Source of the DNA: Shigella phage ESh30
Sequence record: ON528740
Length of the DNA stretch: 64,000 nt
Reading direction: 5' to 3' (one strand)
The notes below the pieces were generated by a model. The model ran no database searches. It was not told where the DNA came from and saw only the letters and a list, made by a program, of their open reading frames with translations. The translations under genes were made by a program, and so were the position numbers. Numbering within the stretch: position 1 is the first letter of the stretch; the number at the start of each line of letters is the position of its first letter. Shown here piece by piece: positions 11,745-50,700 of this stretch.

Positions 11745-11827
11745 GTTCATTATGGTGGTGTTTCGTTTGGTTAATTAGTATTCCATTAATTTGTTTAACA
11801 TTTACTTTTGTGATGAGGTTATTATGA
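11741..11827 (+). CDS. small hydrophobic peptide (28 aa)
   Basis: MSSLWWCFVWLISIPLICLTFTFVMRLL; ATGA overlap with neighbours; below ORF-track cutoff. Confidence 0.35.
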   Translation: MSSLWWCFVWLISIPLICLTFTFVMRLL

Positions 11828-11922
11828 AAATTTTGAATTCTGTACTTATTGCTTGTGCGTGGTGGGTTGCACAGGTTTCAGCAGTGGTGATTGGTATTCA
11901 CATTTATTACGAATATTTTTAA
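11824..11922 (+). CDS. small hydrophobic peptide (32 aa)
   Basis: MKILNSVLIACAWWVAQVSAVVIGIHIYYEYF; translationally coupled (TTATGA overlap). Confidence 0.35.
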   Translation: MKILNSVLIACAWWVAQVSAVVIGIHIYYEYF

Positions 11923-11928
11923 AAAGTT

Positions 11929-11975
11929 GTTTACAAGACTGTTCTTCCGTGGTACTATTACCCTATCAACTACGG
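11929..11975 (+). promoter_or_regulatory. T4-type early promoter with hairpin
   Basis: gtttacaagactgttcttccgtggtactattaccctatcaactacgg; 5' UTR ctatcaactacggaggaRcagaaaatg shared with promoter at 11423. Confidence 0.55.
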
Positions 11976-11986
11976 AGGAACAGAAA

Positions 11987-12100
11987 ATGAAAAAGATTGT
12001 TAAAGCTATATGGAATGTAGTTATAATACTAATAGTTTTGAGTATATTCCCAATCGTTTTAATGATTGATGTATTAAACGTTTACTTTGGATTTATGTGA
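11987..12100 (+). CDS. small hydrophobic membrane peptide (37 aa)
   Basis: MKKIVKAIWNVVIILIVLSIFPIVLMIDVLNVYFGFM. Confidence 0.4.
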   Translation: MKKIVKAIWNVVIILIVLSIFPIVLMIDVLNVYFGFM

Positions 12101-12107
12101 GGAAAAT

Positions 12108-14860: not shown

Positions 14861-15006
14861 GTCCATTCATTGGTATCACAAGCGCTGCATTAGTATCTGG
14901 TGGCATTTTACTGGCGGGTTTAGGTGTTGTTCCTGCCGTAGCAGGAGGTCTTCTTGCGTTCGGAATTCAACGTGTTATCATGACAGTTATCACAGTCATG
15001 CAGTAA
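14857..15006 (+). CDS. small membrane protein (49 aa)
   Basis: MSPFIGITSAALVSGGILLAGLGVVPAVAGGLLAFGIQRVIMTVITVMQ; ATGA overlap with gene 52 stop. Confidence 0.4.
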   Translation: MSPFIGITSAALVSGGILLAGLGVVPAVAGGLLAFGIQRVIMTVITVMQ

Positions 15007-15010
15007 TTTT

Positions 15011-15037
15011 AGGGAGAGCCTCGGCTCTCCCTTTTTT
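15011..15037 (+). terminator. intrinsic terminator (agggagagcc-tcg-gctctccct + T6)
   Basis: Perfect GC hairpin followed by TTTTTT. Confidence 0.7.
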
Positions 15038-17204: not shown

Positions 17205-17412
17205 TTCAAAATCCGATTATTTTAATTCTCTCAATGATAAAGATAAAAATTTAATAAGACATTTTATCGTTGAGATGGGATATACTGACACACGTGATTT
17301 AAGAGAACATATATTTGAATGTGGTGTAGCTAAAAAGTTTTCATTCACATGCAAATGTTTGAGAGAGGTAATTCAGCACTATGAACAATTTAGTCGCAAA
17401 ACACAATTTTAA
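17188..17412 (+). CDS. hypothetical protein (74 aa)
   Basis: ORF track. Confidence 0.4.
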   Translation: MAREINSKSDYFNSLNDKDKNLIRHFIVEMGYTDTRDLREHIFECGVAKKFSFTCKCLREVIQHYEQFSRKTQF

Positions 17413-17489
17413 TAAAGCTTCTGTCCATAAGGATAAGAAGAAAGCGTTTAAAGAATCTAATCGCAAACAGAAACATAAGGGGAAGGTCT

Positions 17490-34830: not shown

Positions 34831-36011
34831 ATGAAACAATACCAAGATTTAATTAAAGACATTTTTGAAAATGGCTATGAAACCGATGACCGAACAGGCA
34901 CAGGAACAATTGCTTTATTCGGTACTAAATTACGCTGGGATTTAACTAAAGGTTTTCCTGCGGTAACAACTAAGAAGCTCGCCTGGAAAGCTTGCATTGC
35001 TGAGCTACTTTGGTTTTTATCAGGAAGCACAAATGTCAATGATTTACGATTAATTCAGCATGATTCGTTAATCCAAGGCAAAACAGTTTGGGATGAAAAT
35101 TACGAAAATCAGGCAAAAGATTTAGGATACCATAGTGGTGAACTTGGCCCAATTTATGGAAAACAGTGGCGCGATTTTGGCGGTGTAGACCAAATTATAG
35201 AAGTTATTGATCGTATTAAAAAACTACCAAGTGATAGGCGTCAAATTGTTTCTGCGTGGAATCCAGCTGAACTTAAATATATGGCATTACCACCTTGTCA
35301 TATGTTCTATCAGTTTAATGTGCGTAATGGTTATCTTGATTTACAATGGTATCAACGCAGTGTAGATGTTTTCTTGGGTTAATTGAGGCCTAGGTATAAG
35401 GTGACTTATACTTGTAATCTATCTAAACGGGGGACCTCTCTAGTAGACAATCCCGTGCTAAATTGTAGGACTACCCTTTAATAATTTCATCAGGATTAGT
35501 TACTTACCGTGTAAAATCTGATAAATGGAATTGGTTCTACATAAATGCCTAACGACTATCCCTTTGGGGAGTAGGGTCAAGTGACTCGAAACGATAGACA
35601 ACTTGCTTTAACAAGTTGAAGATATAGTCTGATCTGCATGGTGACATGCAGCTGGATATAATTCCGGGGTAAGATTAACGACCTTATCTGAACATAATGC
35701 TTCCATTTAATATTGCATCATATGCTACGTTAGTTCATATTGTAGCTAAGATGTGTAATCTTATTCCGGGAGATTTGATATTTTCCGGTGGTAATACTCA
35801 TATCTATATGAATCACGTAGAACAATGTAAAGAAATTTTGCGTCGTGAACCTAAAGAGCTTTGTGAACTGGTAATAGGCGGATTGCCTTATAAATTCCGC
35901 TATCTTTCTACTAAAGAACAATTGGAATACATTCTTAAACTCAGGCCTAAAGATTTCGTTCTCAAAGATTATCAGTCCCACGGCGTCTTGAAAGGAAAAA
36001 TGGCGGTGTAA
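34831..36011 (+). CDS. td: thymidylate synthase, interrupted by a group I intron: join(34831..35379, 35700..36011), 286 aa
   Basis: Exon 1 MKQYQDLIKDIFENGYETDDRTGTG...QRSVDVFLG and exon 2 LPFNIASYATLVHIVAKMCNLIPGD...KGKMAV join in frame to give a 286-aa thymidylate synthase. Confidence 0.92.
35380..35699 (+). ncRNA. self-splicing group I intron in td (320 nt), lacking an intact homing-endonuclease ORF
   Basis: Begins UAAUUGAGGCC right after exon-terminal U, ends ...CUGAACAUAAUG (terminal G); conserved core segments of the T4 td intron recognisable. Confidence 0.88.
35484..35552 (+). pseudogene. 3'-terminal remnant of homing endonuclease I-TevI (last ~22 codons)
   Basis: Translation IISSGLVTYRVKSDKWNWFYINA* matches the C-terminus of T4 I-TevI; no start codon or GIY-YIG domain upstream. 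Confidence 0.75.
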
Positions 36012-47674: not shown

Positions 47675-47675
47675 T

Positions 47676-47683
47676 ATAAATAA
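47676..47683 (+). promoter_or_regulatory. possible T4 late promoter TATAAATA between 31 and rIII
   Basis: Exact TATAAATA on + strand; about 140 nt from rIII start so assignment is tentative. Confidence 0.35.
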
Positions 47684-47821
47684 TAATATGAATTGGGTGT
47701 CGGAATAATAAGTTAACCGAACAATTCTATGTGGTAGTCTACAACTGAGAGATCTGTCGAAAGAAGATGAAATTCAGAAGAACGTGACTACCGAGTTTTA
47801 ATCTCTAACGAGAATTTTTAA

Positions 47822-48070
47822 ATGATTAAACAATTACAACACGCTCTTGAACTGCAACGAAACGCATGGAATAATGGTCACGAAAACTATGGCGCATCTA
47901 TTGATGTTGAAGCCGAAGCTCTTGAAATCCTGCGTTATTTCAAACATCTGAATCCTGCTCAAACTGCATTAGCTGCTGAGCTTCAGGAAAAAGATGAACT
48001 TAAATATGCTAAGCCTCTGGCTTCTGCTGCACGAAAAGCAGTTCGTCACTTTGTGGTAACACTGAAGTAA
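47822..48070 (+). CDS. rIII: rIII lysis-inhibition accessory protein (82 aa)
   Basis: MIKQLQHALELQRNAWNNGHENYGASIDVEAEALEILRYFKHLNPAQTALAAELQEKDELKYAKPLASAARKAVRHFVVTLK recognised as T4 rIII. Confidence 0.9.
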   Translation: MIKQLQHALELQRNAWNNGHENYGASIDVEAEALEILRYFKHLNPAQTALAAELQEKDELKYAKPLASAARKAVRHFVVTLK

Positions 48071-48468
48071 TTTATTGGAGATTCACTGCCTTAGTGTGAG
48101 CTAAAATCGAGGAGCCGTCGAACTGTCTGATTAATGATTTGCGAATCATTATAGTTTTAAGACCCCGGCAGTTTTACGGTGTACCTCTTGAATGTTATTC
48201 TTATAGCGGCAAGTGCATGCTACCCCGAGGTGATGGCCAATCGGGAGTACGCCTCAAGGCCTATATATCCATCAGTATATATCTTATCCTCGAGAAATCG
48301 AACCCGGAACCTTTAAGCTAACGGTGTGCAACAGATAAGAGCTATAAGGTATGATGACGGGTTTATGGTTATCCTGGTCGTTAAATATCAAAAAACCTAT
48401 GTTCCCCTTGAGGGCTTGCGCAGGCAATGCCAATAAGTCCTGCATTTTCATTTAAAAGAGAATTTATA
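48071..48468. other. ~400-bp GC-rich noncoding island with multiple short inverted repeats; candidate structured RNA or decayed element
   Basis: No ORF over 60 aa on either strand except one low-complexity frame; local GC clearly above flanking AT-rich coding; hairpin taatgatt-tgcg-aatcatta at about 48131..48150. Confidence 0.4.
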
Positions 48469-48645
48469 ATGGCAAAACAAGCTAAAGCAAAGAAAGCAGT
48501 TGAAAAGAAAGTTGGTGATTCTAAACGCGCTGGCTACAAGCGTGGGTCGAACTCTCGTATCAATCAAACTGTTGAGAAGATCATGCGCCGAGCACGTGCG
48601 GTTCTTCGAGATGATGCTTCTCGTTTTGGTAAGCAGAAAGCATAA
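48469..48645 (+). CDS. hypothetical basic protein (~58 aa)
   Basis: ORF track 48427..48645 trimmed to ATG 48469; MAKQAKAKKAVEKKVGDSKRAGYKRGSNSRINQTVEK... Confidence 0.45.
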   Translation: MAKQAKAKKAVEKKVGDSKRAGYKRGSNSRINQTVEKIMRRARAVLRDDASRFGKQKA

Positions 48646-48649
48646 GTTG

Positions 48650-48676
48650 AGGACTCCTTCGGGAGTCCTTTTTTAT
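48650..48676 (+). terminator. intrinsic terminator (aggactcc-UUCG-ggagtcct + T7)
   Basis: Perfect 8-bp stem, UUCG loop, TTTTTTATTTT. Confidence 0.7.
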
Positions 48677-48698
48677 TTTCCAAAGATTGCATAAAGTT

Positions 48699-48731
48699 GT
48701 TTACAGTATGGTTCCTTTGTGATAGTATTAT
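48699..48731 (+). promoter_or_regulatory. T4-type early promoter (GTTTAC ... TAGTATTAT)
   Basis: gtttacagtatggttcctttgtgatagtattat. Confidence 0.55.
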
Positions 48732-50249: not shown

Positions 50250-50700
50250 GTTAGAGATTAGAAGCAATTTTAGGTGGCCATCATGTGCATTAAGTAATTT
50301 CGCCCATTGGCCTTTCGTTATGGATGGCATTCAATTTGGAGGTCTTGAAGGATTCCTCCAAGGATGCAAAGTGAAAAATGTTGAACAACAACGTCGTATA
50401 TTTGGGTTATCCGGGCTTGCCGCCCAACAAGCTGGAAGGTCTTATGCAAGAGCTCAGGACCGTGGGACCCTCTTCTGGCTTGGAGTTCCATTTTCAAGAT
50501 ACTCCCCGGCGTGGAAAGAATTATACACAAATGCATATTTTGAAGCAGCGATCCAAAACAAGGGCTTCCGTGATGCATTACAAGCCTCGAAAGGAAAAGT
50601 TTTGAAGCACAGCATGGCTAGTGGTCTAACAAAAGATGATACAATACTAACCGAAGCTGAATTTATTGATGTGTTAAACCTATTAAGAGACTCTCTATGA
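50242..50700 (+). CDS. NADAR / YbiA-like (DUF1768-type) domain protein (~152 aa)
   Basis: Motif block SNFAHWPFVMDGIQFGGLEGFLQGCK resembles the conserved SNFAAWP...DG...E.FQ..K signature of E. coli YbiA-type NADAR domains; locally GC-rich, giving spurious overlapping ORFs 50318..50578(-) and 50378..50605(+). Confidence 0.55.
   Translation: MSELEIRSNFRWPSCALSNFAHWPFVMDGIQFGGLEGFLQGCKVKNVEQQRRIFGLSGLAAQQAGRSYARAQDRGTLFWLGVPFSRYSPAWKELYTNAYFEAAIQNKGFRDALQASKGKVLKHSMASGLTKDDTILTEAEFIDVLNLLRDSL

What the first reader, a model, noticed from the sequence alone, without database searches (positions are those of the whole stretch)
48071..48468. Unexplained ~400-bp GC-rich noncoding island between rIII and the 30.x ORF block
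In a genome where genes are typically ATGA-coupled, this 398-bp stretch has no credible ORF on either strand. It is distinctly more GC-rich than its surroundings (for example gctaccccgaggtgatggccaatcgggagtacgcctcaaggcc) and has several short inverted repeats. Elevated GC with stem potential in an AT-rich phage is typical of structured RNA (as in the td intron). It could be an sRNA, a ribozyme fragment, or the decayed remnant of a mobile gene.
Basis: seen in the sequence. Interest (0 to 1): 0.5.

Follow-up and report, generated by a model that had tools for sequence, protein, structure and literature searches.

The report
Unrecognised folded RNA downstream of rIII
The 398-base gap between the T4-like phage genes rIII and 30.9 is a chain of conserved RNA folds, centred on a 143-nt intricately folded RNA that matches no catalogued RNA family, occurs in roughly a third of rIII-carrying phages of enteric bacteria but not in T4 itself, and has no known job.

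Summary
Window 48071-48468 lies between the rIII stop codon and the 30.9 start codon, has no conserved reading frame, and is GC-enriched (0.42 against 0.358).

It is structured RNA on the gene (+) strand, not a pseudogene. The centrepiece, 48203-48345, has seven helices around a four-way junction and a three-way junction, plus a 6-bp loop-loop kissing interaction.
- 24 of 44 pairs show compensatory changes, and 99% of cells are paired against 25-43% in slid controls.
- There are 64 G·U cells and no A·C cells.

This RNA matches none of the 4,227 Rfam families, even at E<=10. It also has no match in E. coli genomes, and no significant match in plasmids or GTDB genomes.

About 400 phage records carry it, against 1,116 with an rIII match. 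It is always single-copy and always in the order rIII -> RNA -> 30.9. T4 lacks it. In three lineage comparisons it is present or absent while its flanks stay unchanged.

It is 83-96% identical between genera in which rIII third codon positions are 48-60% identical.

The rest of the gap is also folded: a long hairpin, an H-type pseudoknot that T4 shares, and small hairpins, one of which covers the 30.9 ribosome-binding site.

Function is unknown. I favour an autonomous, insulated functional RNA domain over a classical riboswitch.

The parts
47822..48070 (+). rIII (lysis-inhibition accessory protein, 82 aa). Upstream gene of the same transcription unit. A T4 late-promoter motif, TATAAATA, lies at 47675.
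   Evidence: PHROG 1457, E 4.7e-44. Late-promoter motif. Same annotation in phage SA21RB.
48084..48098 (+). Module D. Small hairpin CAC-UGCCUUAGU-GUG with a conserved 9-10-nt loop, U(A/G)CC(U/A)UAAGU. The 3-bp stem changes CAC/GUG <-> CGC/GCG <-> UGC/GCA between genera.
   Evidence: Read by eye from the gap sequences. Not tested formally.
48109..48187 (+). Module E. Long hairpin of 25 predicted pairs with an apical 8-bp hairpin at 48132-48151. Shared with T4 and with the other loci aligned in A9.
   Evidence: RNAalifold on 9 distinct sequences: 7 of 25 pairs have compensatory changes. Coordinates.
48203..48345 (+). Core RNA, a new family of 143 nt.
- P1 48203-48207 / 48341-48345 (extendable to about 9 bp in this phage)
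- P2 48208-48210 / 48259-48261
- P3 48219-48230 / 48237-48252
- P4 48262-48268 / 48275-48281
- P5 48282-48288 / 48334-48340
- P6 48290-48293 / 48298-48301 (GAAA loop)
- P7 48302-48306 / 48322-48327
P1, P2, P4 and P5 meet in a four-way junction with no unpaired linker. P5, P6 and P7 meet in a three-way junction.
   Evidence: Consensus structure. Covariation: 17/44 pairs and 24/44 pairs with 99% paired. Covariance model R1. Single hit in the window at 179.5 bits. Coordinates.
48231..48236 (+). P3 loop UGAUGG, the 5' partner of the 6-bp kissing interaction.
   Evidence: 98.9% paired over 32 distinct sequences; C-G<->U-A (21:9), G-C<->U-A<->A-U, G-C<->A-U.
48269..48274 (+). P4 loop CCAUCA, the 3' partner of the kissing interaction.
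48317..48336 (+). Most conserved block, GCUAACGGUGUGCAACAGAU. It covers the 3' part of the P7 loop, the P7 3' strand and the junction GCAACA. It is invariant except for two positions in all 25 distinct sequences of the first set.
   Evidence: conservation line. Used as the scan pattern.
48349..48401 (+). Module A, an H-type pseudoknot. A hairpin at 48356-48379 with a loop UUUAUGGUUAUC; the loop (GGUU, 48367-48370) pairs with AACC at 48394-48397. Present in T4 as well. In Klebsiella, Edwardsiella and Serratia phages it lies upstream of the core instead of downstream.
   Evidence: Alignment A7 of 14 genus-level variants: 8 of 12 pairs compensatory; 85% paired against 36-50% in slid controls.
48404..48443 (+). 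Module C. Small hairpin H1 (CCCCUUGAGGG, 48404-48414), then CUUG, then hairpin H2 (GCAGG...CCUGC, 48420-48443). The interior of H2 varies freely between phages.
   Evidence: Seen. H1 changes CCCU/AGGG -> GCCU/AGGC in Erwinia phage IT22. Not tested formally.
48445..48462 (+). Hairpin UUUUC-AUUUAAAA-GAGAA that would sequester the 30.9 Shine-Dalgarno sequence. The equivalent is UCUCC...GGAAGA in most other genera and CCUC...GAGG in IT22.
   Evidence: Inference from the sequences. Forms in several single-sequence folds. Not tested formally.
48469..48645 (+). Gene 30.9, a 58-aa very basic protein of unknown function. Always the gene downstream of the RNA.
   Evidence: PHROG 1427 'unknown function', E 2.3e-31. 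No Pfam or PDB match.
48649..48680 (+). Intrinsic terminator ending the rIII-30.9 unit. A T4-type early promoter follows at 48700-48728.
   Evidence: Same features annotated in SA21RB.

Best explanation
SHOWN. The gap is transcribed-strand structured RNA. Its centrepiece (48203-48345) belongs to a previously uncatalogued family of compactly folded RNAs. It has seven helices, a linker-less four-way junction, a three-way junction and a 6-bp kissing interaction between the P3 and P4 loops. A sequence-variable stem, P1, closes it.

The family occurs once per genome, always between rIII and 30.9 on the gene strand. I found it only in T4-like phages of Enterobacterales. It is under stronger purifying selection than the neighbouring protein gene.

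INFERRED.
- No promoter or terminator is predicted inside the gap, so the RNA is probably made as part of the rIII-30.9 transcript. That transcript would come from the late promoter at 47675 and from read-through of upstream promoters, and would end at the terminator at 48649-48680.
- P1 insulates the fold. The element is present or absent in three lineage comparisons with no change at all in the flanking leader, and its order relative to the neighbouring pseudoknot is permuted between genera.
- I therefore conclude that it works as an autonomous functional RNA domain. Its invariant unpaired nucleotides, held in place by the junctions and the kissing loops, would form a binding or active site for a partner common to all these hosts or phages: a protein, another RNA, or a small molecule.
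- It would not be the sensor of a dedicated downstream expression platform. It is an accessory, dispensable function.

The remaining modules (E, A, C and the SD hairpin) are a separate, older structured leader shared with T4. They most plausibly control translation or stability of 30.9.
For: Structure:
- 17/44 pairs compensatory on the MAFFT alignment (98.3% paired against 25-43% slid).
- 24/44 on the 30-sequence model alignment.
- Every helix, including P2 and P7, gains a compensatory change once fHe-Yen9-01, EcS1 and IT22 are added.
- Kissing loop: 98.9% paired with three covarying pairs.

Strand: 64 G·U and 0 A·C cells.

Non-coding: stop codons in every frame.

New family: no Rfam match at E<=10 with lax filters, for the window copy and for the most divergent copy.

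Distribution:
- One copy in the window.
- 19 of 47 IMG/VR rIII loci, all on the + strand downstream of rIII, with no marginal hits in the others.
- About 400 phage records, one place each, against 1,116 with an rIII match.
- All true metagenome hits score 174-183 bits, like the close relatives already collected.
- None in GTDB genomes or E. coli genomes, and only two insignificant 30-nt matches in plasmids.

Constraint: core 83-96% identical between genera, against rIII codon positions 1/2 at 74-84% and position 3 at 48-60%. The adjacent pseudoknot is only 43-72% identical.

Autonomy: clean presence/absence with identical flanks in the window phage vs T4, KMB20 vs CW742 and fHe-Yen9-01 vs phiR1-RT. 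Module order is permuted. P1 differs in sequence but stays paired.

Transcription: no promoter or terminator in the gap.
Against: There is no RNA-level evidence at all: no transcript ends, no abundance data, no processing data.

The element always sits upstream of the same gene in the same orientation, which is the classical signature of a cis-regulator.

The very high between-genus identity could partly reflect recent lateral exchange among co-infecting phages rather than constraint alone.

The family is shallow: one virus subfamily and 32 distinct sequences, many of them close. The number of independent compensatory events is therefore smaller than the cell counts suggest, and model-fitted alignments lean towards the model.

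No partner has been identified. 'Binds something conserved' is an inference from the conservation pattern only.
Confidence: 0.55

Rival explanations
1. Riboswitch-like or protein-responsive cis-regulator. The core is an aptamer in the 5' leader of gene 30.9. Binding of a metabolite, a signalling nucleotide or a protein (possibly the very basic gp30.9 itself) alters the downstream leader, including the SD-sequestering hairpin, and so sets 30.9 translation.
For: The core is always upstream of 30.9 and in the same orientation. It has aptamer-like architecture: a closing P1, multi-helix junctions, invariant junction nucleotides and a kissing loop. A hairpin covering the 30.9 SD is present in all genera examined. 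gp30.9 is small and very basic.
Against: No terminator or anti-terminator is present. The distance from the core to the start codon varies from about 54 to 179 nt, with independent conserved hairpins in between. The order of the core and the pseudoknot is permuted. The downstream leader is identical in relatives that lack the core (T4, phiR1-RT) or carry a plain hairpin instead (CW742), so no platform has co-evolved with it. The P1 3' strand is not conserved. Proteus phage phiP4-3 expresses a 30.9 homologue with no leader at all.
Confidence: 0.2
2. A new class of self-cleaving or otherwise catalytic RNA that cuts the rIII-30.9 transcript, uncoupling the fates of the two mRNAs or releasing a stable fragment.
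For: From general knowledge, small self-cleaving ribozymes are often intergenic in phage operons and are insulated modules. The four-way junction, the tertiary loop-loop contact and the strictly invariant unpaired nucleotides fit such RNAs. The patchy, context-independent distribution also fits.
Against: There is no resemblance to any ribozyme family in Rfam. No candidate cleavage site can be named. The stems are much more conserved than catalysis alone would require.
Confidence: 0.12
3. A passive stability or processing element: a bulky fold that protects the rIII mRNA 3' end or the 30.9 mRNA 5' end from host or phage RNases, interchangeable with any stable hairpin.
For: At the same site CW742 carries a simple 33-nt hairpin and VR7 an unrelated 52-nt insert. 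The whole gap is a string of hairpins.
Against: A mere roadblock would not need about 60 invariant nucleotides, many of them unpaired, nor a covarying kissing loop, nor conservation exceeding that of protein-coding positions.
Confidence: 0.08
4. A DNA-level or selfish element: a miniature inverted-repeat mobile element, a recombination or homing site, or the remnant of a mobile gene (pseudogene).
For: Presence/absence polymorphism among close relatives. Terminal inverted repeats (CTTATAGC...GCTATAAG in this phage).
Against: It is single-copy and always at one locus in one orientation. No target-site duplication is visible at the T4 / window junction. The 'inverted repeats' differ in sequence between genera but stay paired. 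Pairing includes 64 G·U and 0 A·C cells, which only makes sense in + strand RNA. There is no open frame and no protein-family match. It is more conserved than the neighbouring gene.
Confidence: 0.03

Closest known systems
Multi-helix-junction riboswitch aptamers with a loop-loop kissing contact (lysine riboswitch L2-L3, purine riboswitch L2-L3; SAM-I for the four-way junction)
   Same: A closing P1, helices radiating from junctions, invariant nucleotides concentrated in junctions and internal loops, and a Watson-Crick kissing interaction between two hairpin loops. One of the two arms is much longer and must bend back. Located in a 5' leader. The resemblance to these aptamers is recalled from general knowledge.
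   Different: No sequence or structure match to any of them in Rfam. No recognisable expression platform. Flanks are unchanged when the element is absent. The ligand is unknown.
Phage T4 small stable RNAs rnaC and rnaD (species 1 and 2 RNAs)
   Same: Phage-encoded, about 120-140 nt, non-coding, function still unknown after decades, made from a longer transcript. Annotation; 'RNAs of yet unknown functions' in PMC9697503.
   Different: They lie in the tRNA cluster, not at rIII. The covariance model of the new RNA finds nothing there (best 7.5 bits, and not on the rnaC/rnaD strand). T4 lacks the new RNA altogether.
Small self-cleaving ribozymes built on four-way junctions (hairpin, four-way twister-sister)
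   Same: Size range, four-way junction, a tertiary contact between arms, and an insulated module in an intergenic position of a phage operon (general knowledge).
   Different: No Rfam match. The internal-loop arrangement differs. Catalysis was not tested.
Leader pseudoknots in T4 mRNAs, such as the gene 32 autoregulatory pseudoknot (for module A only)
   Same: An H-type pseudoknot in the untranslated leader of a T4-type early/late mRNA. The pseudoknot is supported here by covariation in 14 variants. The gene 32 comparison is from general knowledge.
   Different: Different sequence, different gene, and no known binding protein. Not in Rfam.
Modular shuffling of small regulatory cassettes in T4-type genomes (PeSL, promoter-early stem-loop elements; recalled from the literature, not read here)
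   Same: Short stem-loop modules that are gained, lost and re-ordered between genes in plastic regions. A terminator hairpin plus early promoter of that kind follows 30.9.
   Different: The core carries no promoter, is single-copy, is far more complex than a stem-loop and is highly conserved.

Membership tests
Any Rfam 15 family (4,227 covariance models, including group I/II introns, riboswitches, ribozymes, sRNAs) | Score at or above the family gathering threshold, or at least a consistent sub-threshold match | tested here: not met
   No match overlapping 48071-48468 at E<=10 on 1.2 kb. Zero matches at E<=10 on the 161-nt core alone, for the window and for the divergent fHe-Yen9-01 copy. The whole-window gathering scan finds only a group I intron at 35370-35651.
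tRNA / tmRNA | Cloverleaf recognised by ARAGORN | tested here: not met
   0 genes in the whole window. The four-way junction has no linkers, and the kissing contact is between adjacent arms.
T4 rnaC / rnaD stable RNAs | Sequence/structure homology to T4 70908-71171 | tested here: not met
   cmsearch with filters off: best 7.5 bits, none on the rnaC/rnaD strand and position.
Protein-coding gene or pseudogene | A reading frame conserved among homologues | tested here: not met
   Stops in all six frames in at least 31 of 32 distinct homologues.
Protein-coding gene or pseudogene | Similarity to a protein family | tested here: inconclusive
   The 60-aa ORF has no Pfam match. No frameshift-tolerant translated search of the whole gap against the large protein database was run.
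Riboswitch | Conserved aptamer fold supported by covariation | tested here: met
Riboswitch | Consistent position in the 5' leader of one gene class, same strand | tested here: met
   Always upstream of 30.9.
Riboswitch | Expression platform (terminator/anti-terminator or SD-sequestering helix) that overlaps and co-varies with the aptamer | tested here: not met
   No terminator. Variable spacing and intervening modules. The leader is identical in relatives without the core. Whole-leader MFE folds were uninformative.
Riboswitch | Specific ligand binding | not testable with these tools
   Needs in-line probing, ITC or reporter assays.
Self-cleaving ribozyme | Site-specific self-scission | not testable with these tools
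   Needs in vitro transcription and cleavage assays. No similarity to known classes.
Independent sRNA gene | Own promoter and terminator, or defined processed ends | tested here: inconclusive
   No sigma-70-like promoter or intrinsic terminator in the gap. Processing cannot be assessed without RNA data.
MITE-like mobile element | Multiple copies, target-site duplication, strand-neutral terminal inverted repeats | tested here: not met
   One copy per record. No duplication at the junction. Pairing is strand-specific, 64 G·U against 0 A·C.

The most novel reading that the evidence does not exclude
The core is the founding member of a new class of functional RNA with a biochemical activity of its own. 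It could be a new self-cleaving ribozyme. It could be an aptamer for a small molecule, such as a nucleotide-derived host signal, that T4-like phages carry as a dispensable accessory: a riboswitch, or an RNA 'sponge' or decoy acting against a host factor or defence. The conservation pattern (invariant unpaired nucleotides framed by covarying helices and a covarying kissing loop, tighter than the neighbouring protein) is what such RNAs look like. Nothing in the data excludes it.
Probability: 0.25. Interest if true: 0.85.

Novelty: new member of a known kind. Interest (0 to 1): 0.62.

Why it matters
T4 and its relatives are among the most intensively studied viruses, yet this RNA appears to have gone unnoticed. 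The type phage T4 lacks it, and genome annotators cover it with spurious 'hypothetical protein' ORFs or a 'terminator'.

A 143-nt RNA with a four-way junction, a three-way junction and a covarying 6-bp kissing loop, conserved more tightly than the adjacent protein, is the kind of object that has repeatedly turned out to be a riboswitch, a ribozyme or an RNP core.

It is single-copy and naturally present or absent in otherwise near-identical phages. It also sits in genetically tractable E. coli phages. That makes it directly testable by deletion, by knock-in into T4, by probing and by pull-down.

The analysis also shows that the whole rIII-30.9 spacer, including the part T4 does have, is a chain of conserved RNA structures. 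These include a well-supported pseudoknot and give a concrete hypothesis for post-transcriptional control of the unstudied gene 30.9.

Practically, it provides a covariance-model-ready alignment for correcting the annotation of about 400 phage genomes.

Tried and rejected
1. Rfam scans at E<=10 on the region, the core alone and a divergent homologue: nothing. The only weak hits (Atu_C8, Phe_leader) lie on the 30.9 terminator and reflect a generic hairpin plus U-tract.
2. ARAGORN: no tRNA or tmRNA.
3. Homology to T4 rnaC/rnaD: none.
4. Coding potential: rejected.
5. Host or plasmid origin: no match in 5,426 E. coli genomes. Two insignificant 30-nt matches in plasmids. Four exact-pattern matches in GTDB genomes were chance, with no model hit.
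6. Search for other genomic contexts. The metagenome scan gave 14 true hits scoring 174-183 bits, like the close relatives already held. A degenerate viral scan gave 68 new loci, of which only one was real, IT22-type.
7. Literature: exact-sequence search and several keyword searches found no description. The 2023 catalogue of about 10,000 phage RNA motifs (PMC10690425) has no supplementary text held, so I could not check whether the motif is listed there anonymously.
8. Extra pseudoknots considered by eye had no consistent covariation and are not claimed. These were the 5' internal loop AAGUGCAU with GUGUGCAAC, and the 3' internal loop CUCAAG with the P7 loop.
9. K-turn and T-loop readings of the internal loops did not fit the consensus.
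10. A resemblance of GGGAGUACG...CAAGG and GCUAACG to E. coli 16S rRNA (recalled from memory) is not colinear. A 9-mer match is about what chance gives, so it was dropped.
11. VR7's 52-nt insert at the same site was examined as a possible decayed copy. The similarity is marginal and it looks more like a partial duplicate of module A.
12. Whole-leader MFE folds looking for aptamer/platform alternatives were uninformative.
13. Motif matches at 50405-50419 lie inside a coding gene and are chance.
14. ERROR CORRECTED. queried '30.9' as window:48470-48645, which is one base out of frame. The 30.9 results of those calls are void. The correct frame (48469-48642) was re-run against Pfam, PHROGs and PDB sequences but not against PADLOC.
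15. One search (a script) returned no answer and was repeated.
Full report
**Setting.** The window is a T4-like (Tequatrovirus) genome read opposite to the T4 map. The local gene order is cd, 31.2, 31.1, 31, rIII (47822-48070), the gap, 30.9 (48469-48645), a terminator (48649-48680), an early promoter and then 30.8. The gap is exactly 48071-48468. The nearest records, Pinarejo and fPS-65, are 99.5-99.7% identical over it.

**Observation.** The gap is GC-enriched: 0.42, and 0.476 in its core, against 0.358 for the window. Those values put it in the top 5.3% and top 1.7% of equal-sized windows. It is the largest ORF-free internal stretch of the window once a spurious antisense ORF is discounted. 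The small ORFs that some GenBank records annotate there (three 'hypothetical proteins') are not conserved. All six frames carry stops in at least 31 of 32 distinct homologues of the core.

**The gap is a mosaic.** BLAST against 50,697 phage records showed that different parts of the gap have different distributions. T4 itself has a 244-bp gap that matches the two ends of the window's gap but lacks about 150 bp in the middle. That middle piece recurs at 94-96% identity in Klebsiella, Enterobacter, Salmonella, Raoultella and Edwardsiella phages. It recurs at 80-91% identity in Serratia 4S, Citrobacter Merlin, Enterobacter KMB20 and Klebsiella Potts1. It is always between rIII and 30.9.

**The core RNA (48203-48345).** An alignment of 20 distinct copies gave an RNAalifold consensus of 44 pairs, 17 of them with compensatory changes.
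- On a trimmed MAFFT alignment, 98.3% of cells are paired, against 25-43% when partners are slid by 1-3 columns. No shuffle out of 500 reaches the observed covariation score.
- A covariance model (R1) finds exactly one copy in the 64-kb window, at 179.5 bits.
- It recovered more divergent copies in Yersinia phage fHe-Yen9-01 (104 bits), Escherichia phage EcS1 (118 bits) and Erwinia phage IT22 (148 bits).
- With these added, 24 of 44 pairs show compensatory changes and 99% of cells are paired. Every helix, including the 3-bp P2 (GGC/GCC -> GGU/ACC) and P7 (G-C -> A-U, A-U -> U-A), gains support. That alignment is model-fitted, so it leans towards the structure.

*Architecture.* P1 closes the fold. 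P1, P2, P4 and P5 meet in a four-way junction without a single unpaired linker nucleotide. P2 leads through an 8/6-nt internal loop into the long, bulged P3. P5 leads into a three-way junction with P6 (usually a GAAA loop) and P7, whose 15-nt loop tolerates a hairpin insertion in EcS1.

**A tertiary contact.** The six-nucleotide loop of P3 (UGAUGG) is fully complementary to the six-nucleotide loop of P4 (CCAUCA). Across 32 distinct sequences the six pairs are 98.9% paired, against 19-79% slid. Three of them covary:
- C-G <-> U-A (21:9);
- G-C <-> U-A <-> A-U;
- G-C <-> A-U.

In EcS1 and fHe-Yen9-01, whose P3 loops are longer, the complementarity extends to 6-7 bp in a new register. P3 is far longer than P4, so the P2-P3 arm must bend sharply for the loops to meet. 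This is an inference, by analogy with kissing-loop riboswitch aptamers.

**Strand and coding.** Within the pairs there are 64 G·U cells and no A·C cell, so the fold exists only in RNA of the + (gene) strand. No sigma-70-type promoter or intrinsic terminator is predicted in the gap. A T4 late-promoter motif, TATAAATA, lies upstream of rIII at 47675, and a strong terminator follows 30.9 (the same is annotated in SA21RB). I therefore infer co-transcription with rIII and 30.9.

**Constraint.** Between the window and six other genera the core is 83-96% identical. Over the same comparisons rIII is 74-84% identical at codon positions 1 and 2 and 48-60% at position 3. The pseudoknot next door is 43-72% identical. 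About 60 positions are invariant, many of them unpaired: AAG.GCAU in the P2/P3 internal loop, GA.CC and GCUAA in the P7 loop, and GCAACA in the three-way junction. This is the pattern of an RNA whose three-dimensional surface is under selection. Some contribution from lateral exchange cannot be excluded.

**Distribution.**
- 19 of 47 IMG/VR loci that encode rIII carry the RNA, all on the gene strand and close downstream of rIII. The other 28 give no hit even at E<=10.
- Among GenBank phages about 400 records carry it, one place per record, against 1,116 with an rIII match.
- It is absent from T4, CW742, phiP4-3, phiR1-RT, Abraxas, X20 and VR7.
- In three comparisons the flanks are the same with and without it. 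These are the window phage vs T4 (where 'GA' replaces it), Karamvirus KMB20 vs CW742 (a 33-nt hairpin instead) and fHe-Yen9-01 vs phiR1-RT.
- VR7 carries an unrelated 52-nt insert at the same site.
- Exact-pattern scans of metagenomes, GTDB genomes and IMG/VR, and BLAST against E. coli genomes and plasmids, found it only in T4-like phage contigs.

**Known families.** Rfam 15 has nothing, even with lax filters on the isolated core. ARAGORN finds nothing. It is not related to T4 rnaC/rnaD or to the group I intron elsewhere in the window. Literature searches, including one for the exact sequence, found no description. I could not inspect the motif lists of a 2023 bulk catalogue.

**The rest of the gap.**
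- *Module E* (48109-48187) is a 25-pair hairpin. Seven pairs are compensatory among only nine close variants.
- *Module A* (48349-48401) is an H-type pseudoknot. Its hairpin stem covaries (GAC/GUC <-> GUC/GAC <-> GUGG/CCAC; UGG/CCA <-> UAG/CUA <-> AGG/CCU). Its loop pairs with a downstream stretch that changes in step (GGUAGU:ACUACU, GAAAGUU:AACUUUC, UUGUGAG:CUCACAA, GGUGGU:ACCACC, GAUGG:CCAUC). Eight of 12 pairs are compensatory, and 85% of cells are paired against 36-50% slid. T4 has this pseudoknot. In Klebsiella, Edwardsiella and Serratia phages it lies upstream of the core rather than downstream.
- *Modules D and C and a hairpin over the 30.9 Shine-Dalgarno sequence* are visible in all genera. 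I assessed them only by eye.
- *gp30.9* is a 58-aa very basic protein in a PHROG of unknown function, with no Pfam or PDB relative. Earlier queries were one base out of frame and are void.

**Mechanism.**
*Shown:* a conserved, compact, strand-specific RNA fold with a tertiary contact. It is single-copy, at a fixed locus, dispensable and insulated by a variable closing stem.
*Inferred:* it acts as a self-contained functional domain, whose conserved unpaired nucleotides form a binding or catalytic site. It does not act as the sensor of a dedicated expression platform, for three reasons:
- the leader around it is unchanged when it is missing;
- its spacing to the start codon varies from about 54 to 179 nt;
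- its order relative to the neighbouring modules is permuted.

A cis-regulatory (riboswitch or gp30.9-operator) role remains the main rival, because the element is always upstream of the same gene. A new self-cleaving ribozyme is a serious third option. A passive roadblock and a DNA-level or selfish element are unlikely. No RNA data exist, so the choice among these is a matter of probability rather than demonstration.

**Verdict.** The object is a new RNA family of a known general kind: an orphan complex-fold RNA in a phage operon. It is accompanied by an older structured leader shared with T4.

Noticed in passing
window 48349-48401 (also T4 NC_000866, within 130541-130784, minus strand): A well-supported H-type pseudoknot (module A) sits in the rIII-30.9 spacer of essentially all T4-like phages examined, including T4 itself. 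It is not annotated and not in Rfam.
   Followed up: yes
window 48445-48462: The Shine-Dalgarno sequence of gene 30.9 appears to be sequestered in a small hairpin in every genus (UUUUC/GAGAA here; UCUCC/GGAAGA or CCUC/GAGG elsewhere). This suggests structure-controlled translation of 30.9.
   Followed up: partly
L001 1569-1866 (Pinarejo), L002 2011-2115 (Klebsiella phage TNG87), L089 730-768 (SA21RB): Public records annotate 'hypothetical protein' ORFs, or a 'rho-independent terminator', on top of the structured RNA. These are probably mis-annotations.
   Followed up: partly
L009 ~668-700 (CW742) and L039 ~1270-1325 (VR7): The exact site occupied by the core holds a plain 33-nt hairpin in CW742 and an unrelated 52-nt insert in VR7. 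The site behaves as a slot for alternative RNA inserts.
   Followed up: partly
window 35370-35651: A group I intron (Rfam RF00028, 70.3 bits), as expected for a T4-like phage. It is unrelated to the finding.
   Followed up: no
window 47675-47821: A 147-nt non-coding spacer between gene 31 and rIII that starts with a T4 late-promoter motif, TATAAATA. It was not examined for structure.
   Followed up: no
window 11745-12107 and 17205-17489: Two other ORF-free stretches (363 and 285 nt; AT-rich, GC about 0.31). They were not examined.
   Followed up: no
window 14861-15035: A GC-rich (0.47) stretch flagged as ORF-free by a 50-aa cut-off. It actually holds a roughly 49-aa hydrophobic ORF followed by a terminator, so it is coding, not RNA.
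   Followed up: partly
L034 1134-1268 (Proteus phage phiP4-3): A 30.9-like ORF follows rIII after only 8 nt, with no structured leader at all. The leader is therefore not required for 30.9 expression in every lineage.
   Followed up: partly
L002 1885-1915, L035 ~1275-1300, L088 ~1050-1085: Another recurring small hairpin with a conserved UGUACGC loop and a covarying stem (CCAUG/CAUGG <-> CUUUG/CAAAG). It appears at different places in the spacer in different genera. Noted by eye only.
   Followed up: no
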